Part shown: piece by piece, positions 3,091 to 53,089 of the stretch
How positions within the stretch are numbered: position 1 is the stretch's first letter
Layout of the letters: each line of letters begins with the position of its first letter
Made by a program: the position numbers and the translations under genes
Notes under the pieces: model-generated
The model's database searches: none
The model's input: the letters and a program-made list of their open reading frames with translations, nothing else
Told to the model about the DNA's origin: nothing
NCBI GenBank assembly: GCA_964372905.1
Contig: CAYJQY010000001.1
Span: 72,848 to 136,847, forward strand
Direction of reading: 5' to 3'
Length of the DNA: 64,000 bases
DNA from: an uncultured Candidatus Saccharibacteria bacterium
GTDB lineage: Bacteria > Patescibacteriota > Doudnabacteria > UBA920

Positions 3091-4173
3091 ATGAACCCGG
3101 CCTTCAAAAAAATTATTGATGAATATCAGCAGCTCACGAAGCAGCTCGTTTCGGGTAGCCAGGTTGATCTTGCCCAAACCGGCAGGCGCCAAGCCGAGCT
3201 ATTGCCGCTAGTTGAGACGATCCAGCATCTGCAAAAACTGGAGCGGGAACAGGCCGACAACCAGAAACTGATGGAAAATGACGATCCGGCAATTAAAAGT
3301 TTGGCCGCTGAAGAAGCCAAGATGTTGGAGGAAAAAATTCTGGAACTGGCCGAAAAAATTGAAACCGCTCTTTTGCCCAAAGGCGGAAACGACAATAAGA
3401 ACGTCATTATTGAAATCCGCGCCGGCGCCGGCGGCGATGAATCTACTTTGTTTGCCGCGGAAATGTTCCGCGCCTACGGAAAATTCGCCGAACGAAGTAA
3501 ATGGCGCGCCCGCATGATTTCAAGCTCAAAAAGCGATGTCAGCGGCTTTAAGGAAGTAATCTTTGAAATCCTTGGGCGCGCGGGTGCCTCGCAAGGCGCG
3601 GAATCAGGCCCGTACAGCAAGTTCAAATATGAATCCGGCGTCCATCGCGTCCAGCGCGTCCCCAAAACGGAAAAATCCGGCCGCGTCCATACTTCCACCA
3701 TCACCGTAGCCGTCCTGCCAGAAATTGAGGAGCGCGACTTCCAAATCGATCCCAAAGATTTGAAGATAGAAGCTAACACTTCTTCCGGCCACGGCGGCCA
3801 GAGCGTCAACACCACTTACTCGGCCATCCGCATAACCCACCTCCCTACCGGCATCCAGGCCCAAAGCCAAGACGAACGCTCGCAGGCCCAAAACCGCGAG
3901 AAAGCATTGGCGGTTATTCGCGCCCGGGTTGCCGCCCACTACCGCGAAATCGAAGAAAAGAAAATTAAAGACGCGCGCCGCGGCCAAATTGGCACGGGCG
4001 ACCGCAGCGAAAAAATCCGCACCTATAATTTCCCGCAGGACCGCGTAACCGACCATCGCATCAACCGAAATTTCACCCAAATCGCTTTGATCCTGGAAGG
4101 GCAATTGGAACCAATAATCGGCGCATTGCAGGCGGCAGAATTGCAGCTCCAAAAAGAGAACCTGAAGGAATGA
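3091..4173 (+). CDS. prfA: peptide chain release factor 1
   Basis: GGQ motif (SGHGGQSVNTT), an RF1-type PxT tripeptide region (VPKTE), and the prfA-prmC gene order. Confidence 0.9.
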   Translation: MNPAFKKIIDEYQQLTKQLVSGSQVDLAQTGRRQAELLPLVETIQHLQKLEREQADNQKLMENDDPAIKSLAAEEAKMLEEKILELAEKIETALLPKGGNDNKNVIIEIRAGAGGDESTLFAAEMFRAYGKFAERSKWRARMISSSKSDVSGFKEVIFEILGRAGASQGAESGPYSKFKYESGVHRVQRVPKTEKSGRVHTSTITVAVLPEIEERDFQIDPKDLKIEANTSSGHGGQSVNTTYSAIRITHLPTGIQAQSQDERSQAQNREKALAVIRARVAAHYREIEEKKIKDARRGQIGTGDRSEKIRTYNFPQDRVTDHRINRNFTQIALILEGQLEPIIGALQAAELQLQKENLKE

Positions 4174-4197
4174 ACAAATTAATGTACGAAATCCTTT

Positions 4198-5037
4198 GTG
4201 AAAGGATCCGCCGTGACCATTCGTGATACGCTAAAAAAAAATCCCAAAATCGAAGCTGACCTGCTCCTTGCGCATGTTCTAAAAAAGCCCGGGGAGTTTT
4301 TGTATCTTAACCCGGAAAAAAACCTTAACGCCGCGCAGGCGCGGCGCTTTGCGGCTCTGGCCAACCGCCGCCAAAAAGGCGAACCGGTTGCTTACCTCGT
4401 AGGATACAAAGATTTTTACGGCCTTAGCTTTACGGTCAACCGGCGCGTGCTTATTCCCCGCCCCGAAACCGAATGGCTGGTCGAACGAGGGGCTGAACTC
4501 GCCGCAGAATTAAAAAAAATAAAAGGCCTCCGCGCGCCTGTGCGTATTCTTGACCTCGGCACCGGCTCCGGCTGCATTATCATCAGTTTAGCCAAATGTC
4601 TGCGGGGGGGAAATTACGAATTTTTTGCCAGCGACATTTCGAAAAATGCCTTATCCGTGGCTAAATTTAATGCCGTGAAACATAAAGTAAAAATCAAATT
4701 TTTTCACGGCAATTTGTTTAACCGCCTCCCCGGGCCATTTGAGCTAATTATCGCCAATTTGCCCTATGTTCCAGTTGACGATTATCGCAAACTAAAGGCA
4801 AACCTCCGGTTTGAGCCAAAAATCGCTTTAAGCGACGGCGGCAATGCCTGGAAACTCTATTACAGATTTTTTCAGCAGCTGCCTGATCAAATAGCCAAGG
4901 GCGCGCGCGTTATCCTGGAAATAGATCCCAAATCAGTATCAACTCTGAAAAAATATCAAGCTAGGTTTTTACCCCGCAAAAAAATAGAATTTTCCAAAAA
5001 CCTGCGCGGCCAATGGCGATACGCGCAGGTCTGTTAA
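4198..5037 (+). CDS. prmC: release factor glutamine N5-methyltransferase PrmC/HemK
   Basis: SAM-binding motif ILDLGTGSGCIII and catalytic (N/D)PPY-like IANLPYVP. Lies immediately downstream of prfA. Confidence 0.85.
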   Translation: MKGSAVTIRDTLKKNPKIEADLLLAHVLKKPGEFLYLNPEKNLNAAQARRFAALANRRQKGEPVAYLVGYKDFYGLSFTVNRRVLIPRPETEWLVERGAELAAELKKIKGLRAPVRILDLGTGSGCIIISLAKCLRGGNYEFFASDISKNALSVAKFNAVKHKVKIKFFHGNLFNRLPGPFELIIANLPYVPVDDYRKLKANLRFEPKIALSDGGNAWKLYYRFFQQLPDQIAKGARVILEIDPKSVSTLKKYQARFLPRKKIEFSKNLRGQWRYAQVC

Positions 5038-11300: not shown

Positions 11301-11840
11301 ATAAAAACTTTGGCTGACCTGGGAGAGGACAATATTGTCACGGTCGGCGGGATCATTGCTAAACTTAAACGCACCATAACCAAAAAGAATGACCCTATGG
11401 CCTTTTTAACCTTGCAGGATTCCAGCGGGATCATTGAAGTTTTAGTTTTTCCTAAAGTGATGGCTAACGTGGTGTCTTTACTCCAACTCGACGGCGTAGT
11501 CCAGGTATCTGGCCGTCTGTCCGAGCGCGAGGGCGAATTTAACCTCATTGCTAACGACCTGCGTTCCCTGCCCACCGACGAATCCTATCTGGCAGCTTTA
11601 TCAGAAATGGAAAAAAACAAGCAAGTAGTTATCCACATGCAGAAGTCCAGCGACCCCGAGGTCTTAAACCGAATTAAAGATGTAATTGTCAGTTTCCCCG
11701 GCCAGGCCCAAGTTTATTTGAATTTAGGCAATGGAACCGGGGCCAAGATGATAAAAACGCACTCCCAGGTGCGCATCAGTAATGACTTGGTGGCCGCCTT
11801 AAAGGCTATTCCAGAGGTGCTGATGGTGAGCGAAAAATAA
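8352..11840 (+). CDS. dnaE: DNA polymerase III alpha subunit
   Basis: PHP domain N-terminus (HLHCHSHYSLLDGLSRI), polymerase core and OB-fold region, 1162 aa. An extended -10 (tgatataat) lies just upstream. Confidence 0.95.
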   Translation: MKFTHLHCHSHYSLLDGLSRIGPLVERTKNLGMEALALTDHGVLYGAVEFYNKARDAGLKPIIGMEVYIAPRGLASKDGRQDADYYHLTLLAMNDQGYKNLIQLTTIAHLEGFYYKPRIDKEILKKYGDGLIALSGCQRGEIPRAVVNQSDQEAKLALRQHLNIFGPNRLYVEIQRNARANTEAQTALNNALIAFARTNGLPLVATQDSHYIYPEDAEAHDVMVCIGTGKTVGDSGRLDMRGADLSLRSPEQMAEAFYDLPEAISNTQVIAEQCNLEILVDQRYFPTVELPKGVTAEEHLKTLAHQRARELYAKDEAVPQEITERIDYELNIINKKGFATYFLMVADIVGGAHELGALTNTRGSAAGSLVGKVLGITTVDPIYYELPFERFLTMDRPGTPDIDLDIADNRREETIGWITERYGRDKVAQIITFGTMKARAAVRDVGRALGVPYGKCDRIAKMIPLGKQGFDMTLDHAITVTPELKDVYERDPETNKILTIAKKLEGCARHASIHAAGIVITPTALTDYLPLQLEPDGQRRITQYDMYAIDVNVNSKALGLIKIDLLGIRNLTIVEQAVRIVKQRHGIDIDIYNLPHPDEKTFKLLSDGLTFGVFQLGSSGITRYLRELRPTRIFDIMAMIALYRPGPMQFIPEYIARKHNPSLIKYFDPALEKILKRTYGILVYQDDLLTIAHDLAGYSWAEVDKFRKAVGKKDPVEMAKQKIKFIQGCMDTSGWSHNKASQIWAWIEPFAAYGFNKAHSASYAIVSYQTAYMKANYPVEFMAALMTAESGDETKIYAAVEEGKNLSIQVLPPDVNESLDNFTVVNEATIRFGLNAIKNLGNDVIARIIEVRNNLVGDPGTQAQSRGFASLEDFLIRSHTKNLNKKSWEALVKSGALDSFGERGSMLASTEQVLDFLREHFKHETSGQNSLFGTSNQTGRLKLKNVAPADKDERLAWEKEHLGMYVSAHPLDRYREVLKSVTSIKTLADLGEDNIVTVGGIIAKLKRTITKKNDPMAFLTLQDSSGIIEVLVFPKVMANVVSLLQLDGVVQVSGRLSEREGEFNLIANDLRSLPTDESYLAALSEMEKNKQVVIHMQKSSDPEVLNRIKDVIVSFPGQAQVYLNLGNGTGAKMIKTHSQVRISNDLVAALKAIPEVLMVSEK

Positions 11841-13452: not shown

Positions 13453-15219
13453 ATGATCAAAAACGACGAAGTTATCCACAATCTAAGACATTCTCTGGCG
13501 CACCTTTTGGCCGCGGCGGTGATTGAGCTTTACCCGGGCGCTCAAAACGCCATCGGTCCGGCCATCGAGGACGGGTTTTATCAGGATTTGGACATTCCAA
13601 AACCGATCTCGGAAAACGACCTGCCGGCAATCGAGCGGAAGATGCGCGAGATTCTTAAAACGTGGAAAAAATTCGAACGCCGCAAGGTCAGTCCAGAAGA
13701 AGCTCTAAAGCAATTTTCCTGGAACACTTATAAACAAGAACTCATTCGTGACTTTGCCCAAGAAGGCCAAACGATTACCCTCTATATTTCGGGAAACTTC
13801 GTGGATCTTTGCCGCGGCGGCCATGTAGAGGATGTGACTCAAATAAATCCTGACGCGTTCAAACTGACTAAAGTCGCCGGCGCCTACTGGAGAGGAAATC
13901 AATCCAAGCAGCAACTCACCCGCATCTACGGCCTGGCTTTCAATTCCAAAAAGGAGCTCGACGACTACGAAAAAATGCTGGCTGAAGCCGAGAAGCGCGA
14001 CCACAAAAAACTAGGCAAAGAGTTAGGATTGTTTGCATTTTCAGAAACCGTAGGCAAAGGCCTGCCGCTTTGGACACCCAAAGGCTCAGTCGTACGCCGC
14101 GAGCTGGAACGCTTCATTGTTGATGAAGAACTCAAGCGCGGCTATCTGCATGTCTACACGCCGGACATCGCGCGCCTGGAACTCTATAAAAAGTCCGGCC
14201 ACTATCCCTACTATAAAGACTCTATGTATGCGCCCATCAAAATCGATGAAGATGAATTTATGCTTCGCCCCATGACCTGCCCGCATCACTTTGAACTTTA
14301 CTTAAGCGAGCCCCATAGCTATCGCGAGCTACCTATGCGTATAGCCGAGCTGGCCCACAATTACCGTTATGAACAATCCGGGGAGCTTATGGGACTGCTT
14401 CGGGTGCGCACTTTCTGCCTGGCAGACGCTCATATCATCGCCCGCAAACAACAAGCCTTAACAGAAATTACAGGCGTACTTGACCTCATAGAATTTGTCT
14501 GCACCACACTGGGCCTGAGCCAAGGCGAAGACTACCGCTATCACCTCTCACTCGGTGACCGCAACGATGAAAAAAAATACTACAAGGATGATGCGGCCTG
14601 GGATGAAGCTGAATCCGCTTTACGCAAAGCGCTCCAAGAGCGAAACGCAACCTTTTTCGAAGCCGAAAATGAAGCCGCGTTCTACGGCCCAAAAATTGAT
14701 ATTCAGATGAAGAACGTCAACGGCAAGGAAGATACTGCCTTTACGGTCCAATACGATTTCGTTATGCCTAAACGGTTCAAGCTGACCTACACTAATGAAT
14801 CGGGGCAAGACGAGGAGCCGATTGTCATTCACCGTTCCTCCATTGGCGCGCTGGAAAGAATTTTTGCCTTTCTTATTGAACGCTACGCCGGCGCATTCCC
14901 GGTTTGGCTGGCGCCGGTGCAAGCTATGGTTTTACCCATCAGCGAGAAACAAATTGACTACGCCCGTTCTGTCGCCGCCGAGCTTAAACAGCTAATACCT
15001 GCTATTCGCATCGAGATGGACGAGCGCAGCGAGTCCATCGGCAAAAAAATCCGCGAAGCAAGCATGCAAAAAATCCCCTATCTCGTTATTGTAGGCGATA
15101 AAGAAGTTGCGGCGAAACAGATTGCGGTGCGTGCTAGAGGTGACCAGGATTTGGGAGCACTGTCGGTTAAAAAATTTAGCGACCATCTCAAACAAGAAAT
15201 AGACAGTAAAAAATTGTGA
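13453..15219 (+). CDS. thrS: threonyl-tRNA synthetase lacking the N-terminal TGS/N1 domains
   Basis: Starts at the second additional (editing-type) domain with HSLAHLL. Class II core with the Zn site CPHH, anticodon-binding C-terminus, 588 aa. Confidence 0.9.
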   Translation: MIKNDEVIHNLRHSLAHLLAAAVIELYPGAQNAIGPAIEDGFYQDLDIPKPISENDLPAIERKMREILKTWKKFERRKVSPEEALKQFSWNTYKQELIRDFAQEGQTITLYISGNFVDLCRGGHVEDVTQINPDAFKLTKVAGAYWRGNQSKQQLTRIYGLAFNSKKELDDYEKMLAEAEKRDHKKLGKELGLFAFSETVGKGLPLWTPKGSVVRRELERFIVDEELKRGYLHVYTPDIARLELYKKSGHYPYYKDSMYAPIKIDEDEFMLRPMTCPHHFELYLSEPHSYRELPMRIAELAHNYRYEQSGELMGLLRVRTFCLADAHIIARKQQALTEITGVLDLIEFVCTTLGLSQGEDYRYHLSLGDRNDEKKYYKDDAAWDEAESALRKALQERNATFFEAENEAAFYGPKIDIQMKNVNGKEDTAFTVQYDFVMPKRFKLTYTNESGQDEEPIVIHRSSIGALERIFAFLIERYAGAFPVWLAPVQAMVLPISEKQIDYARSVAAELKQLIPAIRIEMDERSESIGKKIREASMQKIPYLVIVGDKEVAAKQIAVRARGDQDLGALSVKKFSDHLKQEIDSKKL

Positions 15220-15345: not shown

Positions 15346-15370
15346 GCGGCTAACTCCCGCCTCTTTTTTT
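15346..15370 (+). terminator. intrinsic terminator after thrS
   Basis: ggcgg-ctaactc-ccgcc followed by tcttttttt. Confidence 0.6.
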
Positions 15371-15414
15371 ATCCACAATAAAATGCTATAGTTTGTCTGT
15401 ATTAATTTGAATTT

Positions 15415-47170: not shown

Positions 47171-50100
47171 TTACTTCCAGATAAAGTCGATAATCTGCTT
47201 ACCGCGACGGCGCATCAGGGCGAAACCGCCGGTCAGGAGTCCGGCAAAGCCTATAGCCGCCATGCCGCTGCCGGCGCCGGTCTTTGGCGCGATAAAGCGC
47301 GGCTGGCCGGGAATCGGAGGAATGGTAATAGTCACAGTATTGCCGTAGGTGTTGGTCATCACAAAGGTCTGCTGGGCGGACAGGAAGAATTTGACCCGGG
47401 CGCGGAAGCTCTTGGAAATTGAACCGCCAGCCGGAATATCGACACTGGAGAAAGTAATCGTATTCCCGCTCAAGCTTCCGCCGCCCCTGTCAACCATGTC
47501 AGCGAAAGGCAGGACGCCGGATAGATCATCGGTAATGGTAAAATTATTGGCCCGGGCATTGCCTGTGTTAGTCACGGTCAAAGTGTAGGTGATGAAATCC
47601 TCGCGGGCAGCCAGAGTAGTGGTCGCGTCAACATTCTTGGTATCATTATGCGCGCGTTTGCTGAAAATTAAGTTAGGGTTGCCCGTAGTGGTGGTGGTGG
47701 TATCGTTGTCAACAAAGACGAAAGCATCATCTTCGATCCGGCTCACGCCGTCGCCGGTGGCGCGGGCAATGTTCTGGATCGTCCTGGAAGAAGTCGAATT
47801 GACCCTGGCTTCAAACCTGATTCGACGCGACTCGCCGCTTCTAAGATCACCAAGATCCAGATCAATCCTGTTGCCGCTGGAGTTGTCATCATCCAAATCA
47901 TCAGCGTCGATGCTGTCGGTATCCACGTCTAAGCTGCTGGGCACCGAATCGGTCACCCGGACGTTATCTACCGTCTCGCTTCCGGTATTTCTCACCCTGA
48001 TTTCAAACTGGACCTCGTCATCGTTATCGGCATTAACGCTATTGCGCAGCGAAGTGCTCTGGGTTATGTTGCGGACCTGTTTTTCGATAGACAGTTCGCC
48101 GAAGCCGTCACCTATAAAGCGGTTGATAAATACGGTCGCGGAATCGCTTAACGAACCGACGCCGCTGCCGAATACTGTTGCGGTGTTGATAATGACAGTC
48201 TGGCTCTGGCCCGAAGCACCAAAAGCGCGGGCTTGGAAAGTCAAGACGCGGCTCTGGCCCGAAGTCATAGTGCCGACACTGATGAAATTGTTAATGAAGC
48301 TGTCTGAAATTGTTTGGCCATCGAGGCGTCCCGATCCGCTTACTAGCGTAAGGTGGCTCGGCAGGTTTTCCGACAACTGCACATTATTAACGGTACCGTT
48401 GTTGGCCGTCACCACAACCCGATATTCCACGCGCTCGCCGTCCTCGGCTGTGGTCTGTTTGGCAAAGCTCGTGCCGCGGGTCTGGTTGCGAACGTGTTTG
48501 GTGATGTTCAGATTGCCAGCATTCTGGTTGATGCTAACTCCGCAAATATCGCTGGTGCCGCTGCTCGTTACGGTAACGTTGCGCTGACCAGAGGTAGAAT
48601 ACGAAGTATTGAAAGTCGAACCGGAACCGGATGAAGGGTTGCCGCTCGGAGCAGACCAGGAGAAAACGCCGTTGCCGCCCGAGGCGGAGAAGAACATGGT
48701 TTGATTAACATCGCCCGACTGGAAACTAGGCGTGCATTCTACCGCATTGACGATTTGATTAACTTGAACTCCACAGGTATCGCTGGTGCCGCTGCTTGAT
48801 ACGGTCACGGTTTTTGATCCGGAAGTGGAATAGGAAGTGCTGAATTGGGAGCTTGATCCCGAAGAAGGGTTGCCGCTCGGAGCAGACCAAGAGAAAACGC
48901 CGTTGCCGCCCGAGGCAAAAAAGTTAGCCGTTTGTCCCACATTCACGCTCTGGAAGCTTGGCGAGCAGTCTACTGGGTTAACAACAATTTGATTGACCTG
49001 CACCGCGCAGGTATCGTTGGTACCATTACTCGTAACAGTTACAATCTTCTGTCCCGAGGTCGAATACTTAGTCTGGAAACTAGAGCTGGATCCGCTGGAG
49101 GGGATGCCTCCGGGAGCAGACCAGGAGAAAACGCCGTTGCCGCCCGAGGCGGAAAAGAATACCGTTTCATTGATATCCGCGCTCTGGAAGCTTGGCGAGC
49201 AGTCTACCGGATTCGGCTGAGGAATCTGATTCTGTTGATTCTTAAAGACCACTGTAGCACACTGCGGGCCGCTGAAAACTTCCACCACGCCGCCTGCCGG
49301 GGTCACCAACAATTGCTGCCAGCCGGACGGAACTGATTCAGTTACCGCGTGCGTGCCCGCGGAAACATTATTGAAGCGGGCATGACCGCCCGAATCATTC
49401 ACTGCGGTTGCGCCGCCGTCCAAGCGGAAAATGAATTGCGCCACCGGGGTAATTGGCTGGCCTTGGGTATTAAAGGTTTCTTTGATTACGTCGATACAGC
49501 CCACCACTTGGGGCGGTTGGTTGACGTTCACAGCACAGGTATCGCTCAACCCGCCGCTGCTTACGGTCACGGTTTTTTGACCCGGGCTATTGTAAGAGGC
49601 TGAAAAGTTGGAGCCTGAACCAGACGAGGGGTTGCCGCCCGGAGCTGACCAGGAAAAGACACCATTACCGCCCGAGGCCGTAAACAAAGCCGGCACGTTC
49701 ATGTCAACAGTCTGATTATGGGGGGCGCAAATAACCTGCTGAATCGGCGGACTCTTCACGCGCATCTTGAATTTCACAAAACCGCTGAATTCAAAGCAGG
49801 CCCGCAGGTCCCCCAGAGAAAATTCCCCGTTGGAGTCTATGCTAAAACCGCTCTGCACCAGGTTGCCTCGGAAGTCAAAGCGCTGGCCGCTGCCAGGAAT
49901 GATTTCTAAACTCTCGTTGGCATTGGTATGGATAAAAATTGAGTCGCGGATCGTGGCGGCATTATCGGCGCGCAGAGCAATTTTAACCCGGTGCTCTGCG
50001 GCAGCGGCCGTATCAATATTCGTTCCAACTGCAACATTAAACGCTGTAGTAACATTGGGATCGCCATTTACAATAGCCCCGTTATGGAAATACACCAACA

Positions 50101-50416
50101 CGTCAACAACATCGCCGGCATGGGCCGTAACACCTGCCGCTTGCTCGGCATCGTTCCTGGGGTATTGGCCGTTTTCAAGCTTAGCCCGGACCAAAGGAAA
50201 ATCCACACAGGCCAAACCTGGATCGCCGTAAACAATGGGAAACGGATTGAATACCGGGGTTTGAAATTCCTGACAGTCTTCGGCCAAGGCGTTATCTGAA
50301 CGCTGCGGCGCAAAAGCAAAAATGGCGCCGACAGCCAATAAAATCAGCCCCACTTTCCAATTAAAGCGAGGAAAAATCGAACGGAATTTTGACCAAAATG
50401 CTCGCTGGGTGGACAT
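47171..50416 (-). CDS. giant repeat-containing cell-surface protein with C-terminal sortase-type sorting signal
   Basis: N-terminal signal/TM. About five ~75-aa repeats (..CSPSFQS..FFSASGGNGVFSWSAPGGNPSSGS..TVTVTSSGT.DTC.VQVNQ). About three DUF11-like 'conserved repeat' domains. C-terminus IAPKTG followed by a hydrophobic segment and RRRGK. Confidence 0.8.
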   Translation of the reverse strand: MSTQRAFWSKFRSIFPRFNWKVGLILLAVGAIFAFAPQRSDNALAEDCQEFQTPVFNPFPIVYGDPGLACVDFPLVRAKLENGQYPRNDAEQAAGVTAHAGDVVDVLVYFHNGAIVNGDPNVTTAFNVAVGTNIDTAAAAEHRVKIALRADNAATIRDSIFIHTNANESLEIIPGSGQRFDFRGNLVQSGFSIDSNGEFSLGDLRACFEFSGFVKFKMRVKSPPIQQVICAPHNQTVDMNVPALFTASGGNGVFSWSAPGGNPSSGSGSNFSASYNSPGQKTVTVSSGGLSDTCAVNVNQPPQVVGCIDVIKETFNTQGQPITPVAQFIFRLDGGATAVNDSGGHARFNNVSAGTHAVTESVPSGWQQLLVTPAGGVVEVFSGPQCATVVFKNQQNQIPQPNPVDCSPSFQSADINETVFFSASGGNGVFSWSAPGGIPSSGSSSSFQTKYSTSGQKIVTVTSNGTNDTCAVQVNQIVVNPVDCSPSFQSVNVGQTANFFASGGNGVFSWSAPSGNPSSGSSSQFSTSYSTSGSKTVTVSSSGTSDTCGVQVNQIVNAVECTPSFQSGDVNQTMFFSASGGNGVFSWSAPSGNPSSGSGSTFNTSYSTSGQRNVTVTSSGTSDICGVSINQNAGNLNITKHVRNQTRGTSFAKQTTAEDGERVEYRVVVTANNGTVNNVQLSENLPSHLTLVSGSGRLDGQTISDSFINNFISVGTMTSGQSRVLTFQARAFGASGQSQTVIINTATVFGSGVGSLSDSATVFINRFIGDGFGELSIEKQVRNITQSTSLRNSVNADNDDEVQFEIRVRNTGSETVDNVRVTDSVPSSLDVDTDSIDADDLDDDNSSGNRIDLDLGDLRSGESRRIRFEARVNSTSSRTIQNIARATGDGVSRIEDDAFVFVDNDTTTTTTGNPNLIFSKRAHNDTKNVDATTTLAAREDFITYTLTVTNTGNARANNFTITDDLSGVLPFADMVDRGGGSLSGNTITFSSVDIPAGGSISKSFRARVKFFLSAQQTFVMTNTYGNTVTITIPPIPGQPRFIAPKTGAGSGMAAIGFAGLLTGGFALMRRRGKQIIDFIWK

Positions 50417-50800
50417 AATATTTATAAAAGCTTAAAAAATACTTATAATTAAATGACTTGCTGGCCTGTAAAACTTGGCTCAAATATGCTGAAATATGAG
50501 GATTTAAGGAAATAACTTATAATTATAATCTTTTTCGATGATTTTGTCAAGGCGCTTGCGGAAAATGCCCGCGATGTATCTCATCTTTTACAGCGCTGGC
50601 CCAGAACAAACCAGAACAAATATAGCTTCCAATTGTAGCTCTTTCTTAACAAATTGTAAAATAGCCGGATACATAACTGGGTGCATCAAACCCGCCCTGC
50701 GCTTATAAACCATGATCACGCCGATGAGCCACTCCCGCGCGGCCGGATGTTTGATGCCAAGGGTTCAGTACTCACAAATAATAAGACTGTATATTACATT

Positions 50801-51136
50801 TTAGAAAATCCGGCTAAGCAGAAATCCTACTAGATAGACAATAAGATTTACGCACGGCCACAGAGTCGCCCACACAGCCTTGTCATACTCGAATTCCTTG
50901 TTGAGCGTCCTGGGGACGAAAATGGACAATATTAGAATCACCGGCAAAGTCAGTGCGGCCAAACCCATAAAATAGTAACCGCGCTCGGCAAAAGCTCCGG
51001 GCTGGCTGAACAGCCGGATAATCGAAAGAGCCAAGGCAATTGAAGGTAATAACAACACCACATACAAGATTGTGGTATACCGCACAAACTTTTTAGCGAA
51101 TTCCTTCTTAGCGGACTGTTTCGTTTCGTTTGTCAT
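50801..51136 (-). CDS. hypothetical 3-TM membrane protein (last gene of the lexA transcription unit)
   Basis: 111-aa ORF with three hydrophobic helices. Confidence 0.45.
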   Translation of the reverse strand: MTNETKQSAKKEFAKKFVRYTTILYVVLLLPSIALALSIIRLFSQPGAFAERGYYFMGLAALTLPVILILSIFVPRTLNKEFEYDKAVWATLWPCVNLIVYLVGFLLSRIF

Positions 51137-51284
51137 ATCACTTAAAATTATAGCACTAAATGGCGGGTGGCCCCCAATAATTGTTACAGCTATTGAAAAT
51201 AACCAGCATCGATCTTAACTGATCGAAGTGGAGTTCCCCTCGCAGCCATCCTATGAAAATAGCCACAGCTCTTTTTTTACGCTA

Positions 51285-51464
51285 TTACCTCCACAAAACA
51301 CCCTTAAATTCGTTATTGACCATCAGTGGTACCCCGTTGATGGCTGCAATCTTAACCGTAATATCCTGAAGCGGACAAGAATGCTCCCGTTCGTTAGTGC
51401 AATGGGCGCAAAGGCGACGCAATTTATCCACTATTTGATTTTTGTTTAATTCCAATTCGGACAT
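51285..51464 (-). CDS. small Cys/His zinc-finger-like protein (59 aa, below the ORF-track threshold)
   Basis: Reverse-strand ATG at 51462-51464: MSELELNKNQIVDKLRRLCAHCTNEREHSCPL... Lies 13 nt downstream of the lexA stop. Confidence 0.35.
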   Translation of the reverse strand: MSELELNKNQIVDKLRRLCAHCTNEREHSCPLQDITVKIAAINGVPLMVNNEFKGVLWR

Positions 51465-51477
51465 AAAATTTTCAACT

Positions 51478-52089
51478 TCATTCTAAATTTCTGATAACGC
51501 CCACGACCTTGCCCTGAATGGACCATTCTTCTTTGGGATAGATGTTGGGATAGTCAGGGTTTTCGGCTTTTAAGTAGGCGCGCGTCTTAACGTAAATTAA
51601 CCGCTTCACCGTGGCCTCGTCATGCAGCAGCGCCACAACAATATCTTTATTCTTGGCCTCGCGCGTCGGCCGCACAATGACCAGGTCCCCATCAAAAATC
51701 CCGGCCTGGATCATACTGTCGCCGCGCACTTTAAGCAGAAACACGTCGCGCCTGCCCCGCACCAGCGTCTGCGGCAAATTGATCCACTCTTCAATCTGCT
51801 CCTCGGCCCAGTGCGGACTGCCCGCCTGAATGGCCCCCAAGATCGGCACACGAATCAAACCTTTTTCCAAACTTTCGTTCAAACTGTTCAACACGGTGAT
51901 GCCTCGCGCCTTACCATTGGTCTCAATAAAACCCTGCGCTTCCAAGGCATCAAGCAACTTAGCGATGGCATTCTTGGACTTAACGCCAAGCTGCCGCGCC
52001 ATTTCCGACAACGAAGGCGGCAGATTATGCTCGCGCACCTGCTGGACAATAAATTTAAGCAGCTGTTTTTGTCGATCGGTTAAACTCAT
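51478..52089 (-). CDS. lexA: LexA repressor (SOS regulon, S24 peptidase)
   Basis: N-terminal winged HTH. Cleavage and catalytic region (VRGDSMIQAGIFDGDLVIV, K in the C-terminal domain). 203 aa. Confidence 0.9.
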   Translation of the reverse strand: MSLTDRQKQLLKFIVQQVREHNLPPSLSEMARQLGVKSKNAIAKLLDALEAQGFIETNGKARGITVLNSLNESLEKGLIRVPILGAIQAGSPHWAEEQIEEWINLPQTLVRGRRDVFLLKVRGDSMIQAGIFDGDLVIVRPTREAKNKDIVVALLHDEATVKRLIYVKTRAYLKAENPDYPNIYPKEEWSIQGKVVGVIRNLE

Positions 52090-52195
52090 AACTCTAGCGT
52101 ATACGATCGTTCACCCTATGTCAATGCCAATAAAAACAACCCTTTAAGTCCGTACCAAAAAGTTATCCACACTTAACTTACTATATTCAAGTAAC

Positions 52196-52432
52196 TTACT
52201 GTCGAGCGAAAAGAAACTTAATTAACGTCAGAACCCCTTCCCAGATGCTCTTTAAAATCGGCACCGACCCAGGCAACAACACGACAAGCAGAATCAAATA
52301 GATGAAGTTTCGTTTAACCACCTGGACTACTGAATAGATAATAAACACTGCCAGCGCGATAGAAACAATCGGCTGTAAGCCCACGGGGAACAAATTTATA
52401 AATTGAAAATAAAGGTTTTGAATGTCGGCCAT
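52196..52432 (-). CDS. hypothetical small 2-TM membrane protein
   Basis: 78-aa ORF between the HTH regulator gene and lexA. Confidence 0.35.
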   Translation of the reverse strand: MADIQNLYFQFINLFPVGLQPIVSIALAVFIIYSVVQVVKRNFIYLILLVVLLPGSVPILKSIWEGVLTLIKFLFARQ

Positions 52433-52453: not shown

Positions 52454-53089
52454 TTAAAAATGTATGACGTTAAATCTCTCTTGTCCTATCCCCTGCCACT
52501 TCAACCGGCGAGATTTTTTTCGCTTGAGAGTCAGCCGGTCAATTACGGTTAAATAGGGATAATCAAAAATATCTTTGATGAACCGGTCAAACGTGTCGCG
52601 CCGCGCGCGAAACTCCGCTTCTGTCATGATACTATAATTGATTTCATTACCCATAAGCTTTTGCGTTTGATCCAAAAATTGCTGCAAGCGGTTGAGATTA
52701 ACTCTGCCCACCAGTAAAATATCAACGGGCAACTCCGGATAGCCGATAAAGATCCCGCTCAAAAATGCCGCCCTAATATCGCCCAAGCGCCGGATAGCGG
52801 CAAACAATTCATCGTCATATTTTCTTTGATGTTTCACCAGTGAAGGCTTGAGGTCAGTCAGCAGCTTATGGCGCGCAGAGACTAAATAGTACTTTTGCCC
52901 GCGCTTACTGAAACTCTTAATCATGCCATGCCGCGCCAGCTGGTTAAGCTCCCGCGCTAGCGGCCCCACGCCCAGGCCCAACCGCTTGGCCAATTCGCGC
53001 ACGGTAAAACTGCGCGGCGGCGCCAACAACAAAAAACCGATAATAAGAGTTTTGTTTTTTGAACCCATCAAACCTTTCAAGGTTTCCAT
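52454..53089 (-). CDS. winged-helix (ArsR/MarR-like HTH) domain protein with C-terminal uncharacterised domain
   Basis: FTVRELAKRLGLGVGPLARELNQLARHGMI HTH. ATG at 53087-53089 (METLKG) chosen over the longer upstream hydrophobic extension. Confidence 0.5.
   Translation of the reverse strand: METLKGLMGSKNKTLIIGFLLLAPPRSFTVRELAKRLGLGVGPLARELNQLARHGMIKSFSKRGQKYYLVSARHKLLTDLKPSLVKHQRKYDDELFAAIRRLGDIRAAFLSGIFIGYPELPVDILLVGRVNLNRLQQFLDQTQKLMGNEINYSIMTEAEFRARRDTFDRFIKDIFDYPYLTVIDRLTLKRKKSRRLKWQGIGQERFNVIHF

What the first reader, a model, noticed from the sequence alone, without database searches (positions are those of the whole stretch)
50801..52089. lexA transcribed with two downstream small proteins (zinc-finger-like 59 aa and 3-TM 111 aa)
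lexA (51478-52089) is followed on the same strand, 13 nt later, by a 59-aa Cys/His-rich ORF (51285-51464, below the supplied ORF-track cutoff) and then by a 111-aa three-helix membrane protein (50801-51136). SOS-controlled small membrane proteins next to lexA, such as YneA/SulA-type division inhibitors, are a recurring theme. Here the partners are unrelated in sequence, which suggests a lineage-specific SOS effector pair. I could not find a canonical GAAC-N4-GTTC or CTGT-N8-ACAG LexA box upstream (52090-52200).
Basis: inference. Interest (0 to 1): 0.5.

Follow-up and report, generated by a model that had tools for sequence, protein, structure and literature searches.

The report
lexA operon with conserved small Cys/His protein
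In this candidate-phyla-radiation bacterium and about 125 relatives, the DNA-damage repressor gene lexA is always followed by an undescribed 59-65-residue, probably metal-binding protein, whereas the 111-residue membrane protein next to it is a recent local addition.

Summary
Only two belong together. lexA (51478-52089, -) is a canonical LexA. The 59-aa ORF (51285-51464, "s59") starts 13 nt after it.

s59 is a real gene under purifying selection. It belongs to a family of about 400 sequence clusters with no Pfam, NCBIfam, PHROG, PADLOC, PDB or fold match. It lies downstream of lexA on the same strand in 71 of 73 related genomes. All 53 metagenome contigs found through s59 that had room upstream also carry lexA there. 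Invariant residues are C19, H21, C22, H28 and C30, plus a G-x-PL-x-VN-x-x-F-x-G tail.

GTGAACGATCGTATAC (52099-52114) lies between the -35 and -10 elements of the lexA promoter. This site class occurs only upstream of lexA in all loci. A phased TGTGGATAACT element, identical to the DnaA-box consensus, sits 57 nt upstream.

The 111-aa membrane ORF occurs in only one close relative. It has its own extended -10 element and no operator.

Best reading: an autoregulated lexA-s59 operon whose small, probably zinc-binding product most likely works with LexA. That function is inferred, not shown.

The parts
51478..52089 (-). lexA, a canonical LexA repressor of 203 aa.
   Evidence: Pfam LexA_DNA_bind and Peptidase_S24. 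TIGR00498 2.1e-59. Aligns end to end with solved LexA structures at 4e-34. The Ala-Gly site (IQAGSP) and Lys (TVKRL) align with identical residues; GDSM aligns at the catalytic-Ser motif, where the shown chain has Ala.
51285..51464 (-). s59, a 59-aa soluble protein of an undescribed family. Invariant residues are C19, H21, C22, H28, C30 and G44, P46, L47, V49, N50, F53, G55. It is the conserved second gene of the lexA operon.
   Evidence: Homologues lie downstream of lexA in 71 of 73 genomes and 53 of 53 informative metagenome loci. 408 clusters, all about 59-69 aa, none with a Pfam domain. Median dN/dS about 0.2. AF2 model with pLDDT 75: helix 3-16, short helix 20-23, helix 31-41, strands 47-49 and 55-57. 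No fold match.
52099..52114 (-). Putative LexA operator GTGAACGATCGTATAC, a 16-bp imperfect palindrome and a variant of GAAC-N4-GTTC.
   Evidence: Consensus GGTGAACGAT(C/T)GTATACTAT in the 49 relatives' lexA promoters used to derive it. Perfect palindromes occur in L011 (GTATACGATCGTATAC) and L022 (GTACACGATCGTGTAC, both halves changed). It is the only PWM hit of at least 10 bits in the 64-kb window, at 25.2 bits. All hits of at least 13 bits in 554 kb of related loci lie upstream of lexA.
52096..52124 (-). lexA promoter: -35 TTGACA (52119-52124), 17-nt spacer holding most of the operator, -10 TACGCT (52096-52101). The -10 ends 6 nt before the ATG, so the mRNA is probably leaderless or has a very short leader.
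   Evidence: Read from the sequence. The same TTGACA-N17-TACTAT layout is conserved in relatives. The transcription start is inferred, not mapped.
52161..52171 (-). TGTGGATAACT element, the reverse complement of the DnaA-box consensus TTATCCACA. Its start is 57 nt upstream of the operator start.
   Evidence: Present with at most 1 mismatch in 96 of 98 loci within 200 nt upstream of the proximal operator. Distances fall in classes of 57-59, 68-69 and 78-80 nt. 82 of the 98 loci carry an exact 10-mer there, and only 88 exact copies exist in the 670 kb scanned. The window has 4 copies of the 9-mer against 0.32 expected.
50801..51136 (-). m111, a 111-aa membrane protein with three predicted transmembrane segments. 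It is adjacent but not part of the conserved module.
   Evidence: Three hydrophobic segments. The database search found only itself. The only homologue is in L004, at 58% identity. It is absent from about 130 other lexA-s59 loci.
51147..51155 (-). TGcTATAAT extended -10 element, 10 nt upstream of the m111 ATG. Probably m111's own promoter.
   Evidence: Sequence. The same GTGCTATAAT is conserved upstream of the L004 homologue. No operator-like site nearby.
52196..52432 (-). m78, a 78-aa protein with two predicted transmembrane segments. It is the conserved upstream neighbour, lies outside the operator-controlled unit, and has no known function.
   Evidence: Homologue upstream of lexA in nearly all loci. 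Two hydrophobic segments. No family match.
52454..53089 (-). Winged-helix regulator-like protein. Gene callers give 211 aa; the longest ORF runs to 53227. It is a conserved neighbour upstream of m78.
   Evidence: Conserved in nearly all loci. Gene call in L001. PADLOC PDC-M05A 4.1e-24. Only weak HTH hits in Pfam.

Best explanation
lexA and the 59-aa gene (s59) form one damage-inducible, self-repressed operon that is ancestral to a Doudnabacteria-like clade of Patescibacteria.

Shown:
- LexA here is canonical.
- A 16-bp imperfect palindrome, GTGAAC-N4-GTATAC, fills the spacer and overlaps the -10 of the lexA promoter.
- s59 follows lexA on the same strand in essentially every relative, with no operator of its own.
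- s59 is a soluble, usually basic protein with an invariant C-x2-C ... H-x-C cluster.

Inferred:
- LexA binds the palindrome and blocks RNA polymerase. RecA-stimulated self-cleavage after DNA damage then derepresses both genes together.
- The Cys/His cluster binds a metal, most likely zinc, which clamps the two helices into a hairpin.
- The invariant C-terminal GVPL(I/M)VNNEF(K/R)GV segment is a partner-binding surface.
- Most likely, s59 acts with LexA as an accessory factor. It could assist operator binding or tune self-cleavage, as phage GIL01 gp7 does for LexA and DdrR does for UmuDAb. It is less likely a downstream effector.
- A TGTGGATAACT element with the DnaA-box consensus, held at helical-turn-spaced distances upstream, probably adds a second input such as replication status.

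The 111-aa membrane gene is a species-level insertion with its own promoter and is not part of this system.

My confidence is about 0.9 for the operon and operator architecture and about 0.35 for the LexA-accessory role.
For: Synteny:
- 71 of 73 genomes found through LexA carry s59 downstream on the same strand.
- 53 of 53 informative metagenome loci found through s59 carry lexA upstream. So do all 5 contigs found by protein identity.
- The link survives repeated insertions between the two genes: 23S_rRNA_IVP, DUF5680 and unknown ORFs, all on the same strand. It also survives complete turnover of the downstream neighbour.
- Junctions such as TAAtATG suggest translational coupling; 37 of 125 gaps are 30 nt or less.

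Operator:
- It is the only hit in the window and occurs only upstream of lexA in the relatives.
- Both halves change together in L022.
- It resembles the GAAC-N4-GTTC motif of Firmicutes and Actinobacteria. Tandem operator sites in lexA promoters are known from Verrucomicrobia (PMC4951493).

Protein:
- Real gene, with dN/dS about 0.2 and invariant Cys and His residues encoded by both codons.
- Family median pI 9.5 and no transmembrane segment.

Precedents for small partners of LexA-family repressors: gp7 (PMC4551915) and DdrR (PMC11332147).

Weak support: the residual distance correlation of s59 with LexA after removing the neighbour-gene signal is 0.33 (0.38 for the DNA-binding domain). The control pair m78-LexA gives 0.06.
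Against: - No binding, cleavage or expression data exist, and no complex could be modelled with these tools.
- The operator was defined only from lexA promoters. I could not inspect any recA or uvrA promoter from these genomes, so its assignment to LexA is an inference.
- Strict linkage is also expected for any gene that depends on the lexA promoter for damage induction, so synteny does not separate partner from effector.
- s59 has no sequence or fold similarity to gp7, DdrR, DinI or any other known SOS modulator.
- The mirror-tree signal is small and was not tested for significance.
- One relative, L059 (LexA 77% identical), has no s59 within 4 kb.
- Metal binding is inferred from conserved residues only.
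Confidence: 0.4

Rival explanations
1. s59 is a downstream SOS effector, not a LexA partner. It would be a small cytoplasmic checkpoint protein made after damage that blocks cell division (for example through FtsZ) or replication initiation (for example through DnaA or the clamp). It would be functionally analogous to SulA-type inhibitors or other small checkpoint peptides.
For: - Adjacency to lexA is typical of SOS division inhibitors (established knowledge: yneA, sosA, chiZ).
- s59 shares the lexA promoter, and its only operator is upstream of lexA.
- The DnaA-box-like element at the promoter fits a replication-status checkpoint.
- The invariant C-terminal segment looks like a binding surface for a conserved target.
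Against: - Known lexA-adjacent inhibitors are divergently transcribed and membrane-anchored or LysM-bearing. s59 is soluble and matches no such family.
- Being co-transcribed, and in places probably translationally coupled, with the always-expressed lexA implies substantial basal synthesis. That is awkward for an inhibitor (inference).
- No homology to SulA.
Confidence: 0.25
2. s59 is a metal- or redox-handling protein, such as a thiol or metal sensor or a zinc-donating factor for repair enzymes. Its only link to LexA is that it uses the lexA promoter for damage-inducible expression.
For: - Five invariant Cys and His residues within 12-16 positions.
- No DNA-binding or enzyme fold detected.
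- A weak, sub-threshold Pfam hit to the Cys-rich small protein YnfU, E 0.068.
Against: - The most conserved part of the protein is the Cys-free C-terminal segment. That argues for a protein or nucleic-acid partner, not pure metal chemistry.
- This reading gives no reason why the gene never acquired its own promoter in about 125 lineages.
Confidence: 0.15
3. One reading: lexA, s59 and the 111-aa membrane protein are one SOS transcription unit, and the membrane protein is a YneA- or SidA-like division inhibitor working with s59.
For: - Same strand, and the scan found no intrinsic terminator in the 148-nt gap.
- Small SOS-induced membrane inhibitors are a recurring theme (established knowledge).
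- The closest relative, L004, keeps the same order.
Against: - m111 is absent from all other lexA-s59 loci.
- It has a conserved extended -10 element of its own in both genomes.
- No operator is near it.
- The position after s59 is occupied by 54 unrelated gene clusters in relatives.
- In this window it sits between s59 and a surface-protein gene that directly follows s59 in 25 relatives.
Confidence: 0.05

Closest known systems
LexA autoregulation through a GAAC-N4-GTTC operator (Firmicutes and Actinobacteria; PMC4951493)
   Same: - Canonical LexA with an Ala-Gly cleavage site and a Ser/Lys dyad.
- A palindromic operator with a 4-bp spacer overlapping its own promoter.
- Tandem operator sites in many relatives, as reported for Verrucomicrobia lexA promoters (PMC4951493).
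   Different: - The half-sites are GT(G/A)(A/T)AC and GTATAC, not CGAAC and GTTCG. The right half doubles as part of the -10 region.
- Binding has not been tested.
- The published Patescibacteria SOS study (Sanchez-Osuna et al. 2017) is not in the held library, so I could not compare its motif.
Phage GIL01 gp7, a small protein that binds host LexA, enhances its DNA binding and inhibits RecA-mediated self-cleavage (PMC4551915)
   Same: - A protein of about 50-60 residues functionally tied to LexA.
- It shows that LexA activity can depend on a small accessory protein.
   Different: - gp7 is encoded by a phage. s59 is chromosomal and lies in the lexA operon itself.
- No sequence match in PHROGs and no fold match in the viral structure library.
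- An s59-LexA interaction is untested.
Acinetobacter DdrR, a genus-specific small co-repressor that assists binding of UmuDAb dimers to an atypical SOS box (PMC11332147)
   Same: - A lineage-restricted small protein genetically linked to a LexA-family repressor.
- An atypical operator.
- The co-repressor's own gene is damage-inducible.
   Different: - ddrR is transcribed divergently from umuDAb, and Acinetobacter lacks LexA. Here LexA is canonical and s59 is in the same operon.
- No sequence relationship was detected.
SOS cell-division inhibitors next to lexA (YneA, SosA, ChiZ, SidA; SulA). This comparison rests on established knowledge, not on a database test beyond Pfam and NCBIfam.
   Same: Small, lineage-specific, damage-induced genes located beside lexA.
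   Different: - Those are membrane-anchored or LysM or SulA-fold proteins, usually transcribed divergently with their own operator.
- s59 is soluble, Cys/His-bearing and co-transcribed.
- The membrane ORF m111 is not conserved.

Membership tests
LexA repressor (TIGR00498; Pfam PF01726 + PF00717) | N-terminal LexA winged-helix DNA-binding domain plus C-terminal S24 peptidase domain | tested here: met
   PF01726 1.9e-17 and PF00717 4.6e-33. TIGR00498 scores 200.5 bits against a cut-off of 110.95.
LexA repressor (TIGR00498; Pfam PF01726 + PF00717) | Ala-Gly self-cleavage site and Ser/Lys catalytic dyad | tested here: met
   In the alignment to solved LexA chains, IQAGSP and TVKRL align with identical Ala-Gly and Lys residues. 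GDSM aligns at the catalytic-Ser motif, where the shown chain has Ala.
LexA repressor (TIGR00498; Pfam PF01726 + PF00717) | Binds a palindromic operator in its own promoter (autoregulation) | tested here: inconclusive
   A conserved palindrome overlaps the promoter, is specific to lexA upstream regions, and shows changes in both halves. Binding itself cannot be tested with these tools, and no other SOS promoter was available.
SOS division inhibitors (YneA with LysM; SulA, PF03846) | Sequence membership in a known inhibitor family, for s59 or m111 | tested here: not met
   No Pfam or NCBIfam hit for s59. m111 gives only sub-threshold transmembrane-type noise.
SOS division inhibitors (YneA with LysM; SulA, PF03846) | Conserved position next to lexA and control by a LexA operator | tested here: inconclusive
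   s59 is conserved and shares the lexA operator. m111 is neither conserved nor near an operator. No phenotype data exist.
Zinc-finger or zinc-ribbon small proteins | Four conserved Cys/His ligands in two closely spaced pairs | tested here: met
   C19-x2-C22 and H28-x-C30 are invariant or at least 99% conserved in 113 distinct sequences. H21 is also at least 99% conserved.
Zinc-finger or zinc-ribbon small proteins | Match to a described zinc-binding family or fold | tested here: not met
Zinc-finger or zinc-ribbon small proteins | Actual metal binding | not testable with these tools
   This needs metal analysis of recombinant protein.
Small accessory proteins of LexA-family repressors (gp7, DdrR) | Sequence or fold homology to gp7 or DdrR | tested here: not met
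   No PHROG reaches E < 0.04. The viral structure library gives no match with E < 1. DdrR was not compared directly because its sequence was not at hand.
Small accessory proteins of LexA-family repressors (gp7, DdrR) | Physical interaction with the repressor and an effect on DNA binding or cleavage | not testable with these tools
   Only indirect evidence: absolute synteny and a weak residual co-variation of distances.
DnaA box | 9-mer matching TTATCCACA | tested here: met
   TGTGGATAA at 52163-52171 on the - strand. Conserved in 96 of 98 relatives at phased distances.
DnaA box | Bound by DnaA, with an effect on transcription | not testable with these tools
   No binding data. The element could be the site of another factor.

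The most novel reading that the evidence does not exclude
s59 is the founding member of a chromosomal, zinc-stabilised LexA co-factor family. It binds LexA, most likely the DNA-binding domain, and is needed for stable repression at the asymmetric GTGAAC-N4-GTATAC operator or for setting the rate of self-cleavage. The operon additionally reads replication status through a phased DnaA box. In that case the SOS switch of this candidate-phyla-radiation clade would be a two-protein, two-input device, not LexA alone.
Probability: 0.25. Interest if true: 0.75.

Novelty: new variant of a known kind. Interest (0 to 1): 0.55.

Why it matters
The SOS response is one of the best-studied bacterial circuits. 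Even so, lineage-specific accessory proteins such as gp7 and DdrR keep changing how LexA-type repressors are thought to work.

Here a whole clade of the little-studied, mostly uncultured Patescibacteria keeps an unannotated 60-residue Cys/His protein welded to lexA. The genomes are small, the flanks turn over, and other genes have been inserted between the two repeatedly. That points to an essential role in the damage response.

The finding also gives concrete reagents for in vitro tests that need no cultivation:
- a defined operator,
- a second phased element with the DnaA-box sequence,
- a small soluble protein with clear mutational targets.

It also shows that ORFs below common annotation cut-offs can be the most conserved partners of core regulators.

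Tried and rejected
- Family searches for s59 in Pfam, NCBIfam, PHROGs and PADLOC found nothing significant.
- A profile search of PDB sequences found nothing below E 0.4.
I repeated it with database proteins.
- The first word-indexed search found only 4 homologues. This gave a false impression of rarity. The profile search found 408 clusters.
- P0018, a 759-aa hit with 12 repeats in the exhaustive search, is a low-complexity repeat ORF and was discarded.
- The JGI label "GAF domain-containing protein" on a few 63-aa members is not credible for a protein this size and has no Pfam support.
- Rfam found only two tRNAs in the window and nothing in the lexA-s59 spacers of relatives.
- The Patescibacteria SOS paper (doi 10.1111/1462-2920.13826) is not in the held library. 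No held paper links a DnaA box to a lexA promoter.
- Motif searches for recA, uvrA and other SOS genes in the window found only dnaE, so I could not cross-validate the operator on a second SOS promoter.
- The mirror-tree analysis gave only a weak signal.
- The chance-ORF explanation for s59 is rejected.
Full report
**1. Observation**

The - strand of 50801-52089 carries three ORFs exactly as described.
- lexA, 51478-52089, 203 aa.
- A 59-aa ORF, 51285-51464, starting 13 nt after the lexA stop. I call it s59.
- A 111-aa ORF, 50801-51136, after a 148-nt gap. I call it m111.

LexA is canonical.
- It has Pfam LexA_DNA_bind and Peptidase_S24 and passes the NCBIfam lexA equivalog at 200 bits against a cut-off of 111.
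- It aligns end to end with solved LexA structures. The Ala-Gly site and the Lys align with identical residues, and GDSM aligns at the catalytic-Ser motif.

m111 has three hydrophobic 19-residue segments. s59 has none.

**2. Organism and comparison set**

A LexA-based scan of one genome per species returned 73 loci.
- Nearly all are labelled Candidatus Doudnabacteria, Patescibacteria group, or a generic "uncultured Candidatus Saccharibacteria".
- Their LexA is 60-84% identical to the window's.
- One locus, labelled Mycoplasma, has a LexA only 36% identical and serves as an outgroup.

The rest of the window looks like an ordinary chromosome of such an organism: dnaE, thrS, glmS, rplJ and rplL.

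**3. The 59-aa ORF is a real, strictly lexA-linked gene**

- An HMM built from the first five homologues finds s59 on the lexA strand, downstream of lexA, in 71 of the 73 genome loci. The exceptions are L059 and the outgroup L075.
- The reciprocal test agrees. Of 59 metagenome loci fetched through an s59 profile, 53 have lexA upstream on the same strand. Six are cut too close to the contig end to tell. None has room upstream without a lexA.
- All five contigs found by exact protein look-up show the same arrangement.
- The family has 408 clusters at 90% identity. All listed members are about 59-69 aa and mostly unnamed or called hypothetical, and none has a Pfam domain.
- An exhaustive profile search of 1.84 billion representatives found only 18 genuine clusters at 50% identity, so the family is narrow.
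- Among 113 distinct sequences the median dN/dS is about 0.2, over the 87 sampled pairs with unsaturated dS.
- M1, K8, L18, C19, C22, C30, G44, V49 and N50 are invariant. A20, H21, H28, P46, L47, F53 and G55 are at least 98% conserved. All are encoded by every synonymous codon.

**4. Operon structure**

The lexA-to-s59 gap across 125 loci:

| Gap | Loci |
|---|---|
| 30 nt or less | 37 |
| 31-120 nt | 31 |
| 121-300 nt | 13 |
| more than 300 nt | 44 |

- Several of the shortest junctions read TAA-n-ATG.
- In the long gaps, extra ORFs sit between the two genes, always on the same strand. Those I tested are 23S_rRNA_IVP four-helix-bundle proteins, DUF5680, or unknown.
- In some loci a PDDEXK_3 nuclease-like ORF lies between the operator-bearing promoter and lexA.
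- s59 therefore stays the distal gene of the unit despite repeated insertions.
- The gene after s59 is not conserved: 54 sequence clusters in 114 loci, 39 of them singletons.

**5.

Upstream regions of lexA in relatives share TTGACA, a short spacer, then GGTGAACGAT(C/T)GTATACTAT.
- The core is a 16-bp imperfect palindrome, GT(G/A)(A/T)AC-N4-GTATAC.
- L011 has the perfect palindrome GTATACGATCGTATAC. L022 has GTACACGATCGTGTAC, in which both halves changed together.
- In the window the site is GTGAACGATCGTATAC at 52099-52114. It lies between the -35 TTGACA (52119-52124) and a -10 TACGCT (52096-52101), which ends 6 nt before the ATG.
- A symmetrised matrix scores the window site at 25.2 bits. It is the only hit of at least 10 bits in the 64 kb, where shuffled sequence gives about 0.9.
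- In 554 kb of genome loci and in the metagenome loci, every hit of at least 13 bits lies upstream of lexA, one or two per locus. None lies between lexA and s59 or elsewhere.
- The matrix was trained on the proximal sites, so those hits are circular. The absence of hits elsewhere is an independent result. So are the second sites found upstream in many loci, commonly about 43 nt before the proximal one.
- The motif is a variant of the GAAC-N4-GTTC box of Firmicutes and Actinobacteria. Tandem sites in lexA promoters are known (PMC4951493).
- I could not check a recA or uvrA promoter, so assigning this site to LexA remains an inference.

**6. A second conserved cis-element**

- TGTGGATAACT is the reverse complement of the DnaA-box consensus TTATCCACA. 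It lies at 52161-52171, and its start is 57 nt upstream of the operator start.
- With at most one mismatch it occurs in 96 of 98 loci within 200 nt upstream of the proximal operator.
- The distances fall into classes of 57-59, 68-69 and 78-80 nt, about one helical turn apart.
- 82 of the 98 loci carry an exact 10-mer there, and only 88 exact copies exist in the 670 kb scanned.
- Such phasing is what one expects of a protein site that must face the promoter.
- Whether DnaA or another factor binds it is untested. No held paper connects a DnaA box with a lexA promoter.

**7. The 111-aa membrane ORF does not belong**

- The database search found only itself.
- Among about 130 loci the only homologue is in the nearest relative, L004, at 58% identity.
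- Both copies are preceded by the same GTGCTATAAT extended -10 element (window 51147-51155).
- No operator-like site is nearby.
- In 25 relatives, the first sizeable ORF after s59 is a homologue of the large DUF11/PKD surface protein. In the window that protein lies beyond m111, at 47171-50416.
- m111 therefore looks like a recent insertion.

**8. What s59 is**

- No family or structure database recognises it.
- An AF2 model from 123 sequences has mean pLDDT 75. It shows helix 3-16, a short helix over C19-A-H-C22, a loop, helix 31-41 starting right after H28-x-C30, and two short strands, 47-49 and 55-57.
- The two ligand pairs sit at the ends of the two helices. This is a plausible metal clamp (inference).
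- The family is usually basic, with a median pI of 9.5.
- The most conserved stretch is the Cys-free C-terminal GVPL(I/M)VNNEF(K/R)GV. That suggests a binding surface for a conserved partner.

**9. Mechanism**

Shown: the gene order, the single operator class, the canonical LexA, and the conservation pattern.

Inferred:
- LexA represses its own promoter.
- DNA damage derepresses lexA and s59 together.
- s59 binds metal.

I favour s59 as a LexA accessory factor for three reasons.
- The linkage is absolute and persists through insertions, and the shortest junctions suggest translational coupling.
- A gene co-expressed with the constitutively made repressor is an awkward place for a growth inhibitor.
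- Small proteins that assist LexA-family repressors exist: gp7 (PMC4551915) and DdrR (PMC11332147).

A mirror-tree analysis gives only weak support. The partial correlation of s59 with LexA is 0.33 (0.38 for the N-terminal domain), against 0.06 for the control pair.

The main rival is a soluble checkpoint effector acting on division or replication initiation. The DnaA-box-like element makes that attractive. A metal or redox role is a third option. None is excluded. I put the accessory role at about 0.35, the effector at about 0.25, and a metal or redox role at about 0.15.

**10. Comparison and verdict**

- The LexA part is ordinary.
- The operator is a new variant of a known class, subject to the unseen Patescibacteria study.
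- s59 is an undescribed family in a known kind of position, a lineage-specific small gene tied to lexA. It differs from known examples in being soluble, Cys/His-bearing and co-transcribed.
Its interpretation is half right: the pair is lexA plus s59, not s59 plus m111.
- Interest is moderate. This is not a new principle, but it is a sharply defined, testable unknown inside a core stress circuit of a poorly known phylum.

Noticed in passing
window 52161-52171 (-); also 11629-11637, 13472-13480 and 15369-15377 (-): TGTGGATAA(CT), identical to the DnaA-box consensus. The copy upstream of lexA is conserved in 96 of 98 relatives at helical-turn-phased distances from the operator (57-59, 68-69, 78-80 nt). 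Three further perfect 9-mers lie in the dnaE-thrS-glmS region, so the window has 4 against 0.32 expected.
   Followed up: partly
L047 3900 and 3943; L053 3897 and 3940; L106 1046 and 1089, and many others: Many relatives have two operator-like palindromes with starts commonly about 43 nt apart. The upstream one (for example GGTAAACAAGCGTTTACC) is extended to a 9-bp stem and followed by a T-run. It could therefore also act as the terminator of the upstream gene. The window's lineage has lost it.
   Followed up: partly
window 52196-52432 (-) and 52454-53089 or 53227 (-): A 78-aa protein with two predicted transmembrane segments and a winged-helix protein are conserved just upstream of lexA in nearly all relatives. 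The winged-helix protein matches PADLOC candidate defence family PDC-M05A at 4.1e-24. Neither lies downstream of the operator.
   Followed up: partly
L013 4613-4772, L014, L016 747-923, L017 4613-4795, L010 4170-4356, L080 517-711, L091, L092: One sub-clade carries a conserved element of about 120-190 nt between lexA and s59. A long-range helix in it keeps pairing through changes on both sides (GTAGTTTTG/CAAAACTAC versus GTAAATTTG/CAAATTTAC). It has no Rfam match and is absent from the window. It may be a structured RNA that controls s59, or a small mobile element.
   Followed up: partly
L038 4644-4997, L040 4641-5036, L047 4643-5002, L020 2001-2492, L036 3525-3932, L042 1745-2251: The lexA operon of relatives repeatedly takes up small ORFs. 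23S_rRNA_IVP four-helix-bundle proteins and DUF5680 lie between lexA and s59. PDDEXK_3 nuclease-like ORFs lie between the operator and lexA. All are on the operon strand, so they would become damage-inducible.
   Followed up: partly
window about 50716-50772 (-), within the 384-nt ORF-free stretch 50417-50800: This is a relic of the 5' end of a rarA/mgsA gene. The window translates to EPLASNIRPRGSGSSA*. L004 has an intact start at the same place (MAAAEPLASKIRPKSLDEFVGQQHLVGPG...), which matches solved RarA at 1.5e-5. The gene seems to have been lost here.
   Followed up: partly
window 52087-52101 (-): The lexA -10 element ends 6 nt before the ATG and there is no Shine-Dalgarno sequence. The lexA mRNA is probably leaderless in this genome and in some relatives (L015, L021, L028). 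Others have leaders of 20-50 nt.
   Followed up: no
window 50522-50550 (-): A perfect sigma-70 consensus promoter (TTGACA, 17 nt, TATAAT; 12 of 12) lies upstream of the 1081-aa DUF11/PKD surface-protein gene at 47171-50416.
   Followed up: no
L059 (CAYYEK010000021.1), lexA at 3989-4606: This is the only close relative (LexA 77% identical) with no s59 or m78 within 4 kb. Its operator-like site lies about 270 nt upstream of lexA. s59 may have been lost, moved, or separated by an assembly problem.
   Followed up: partly
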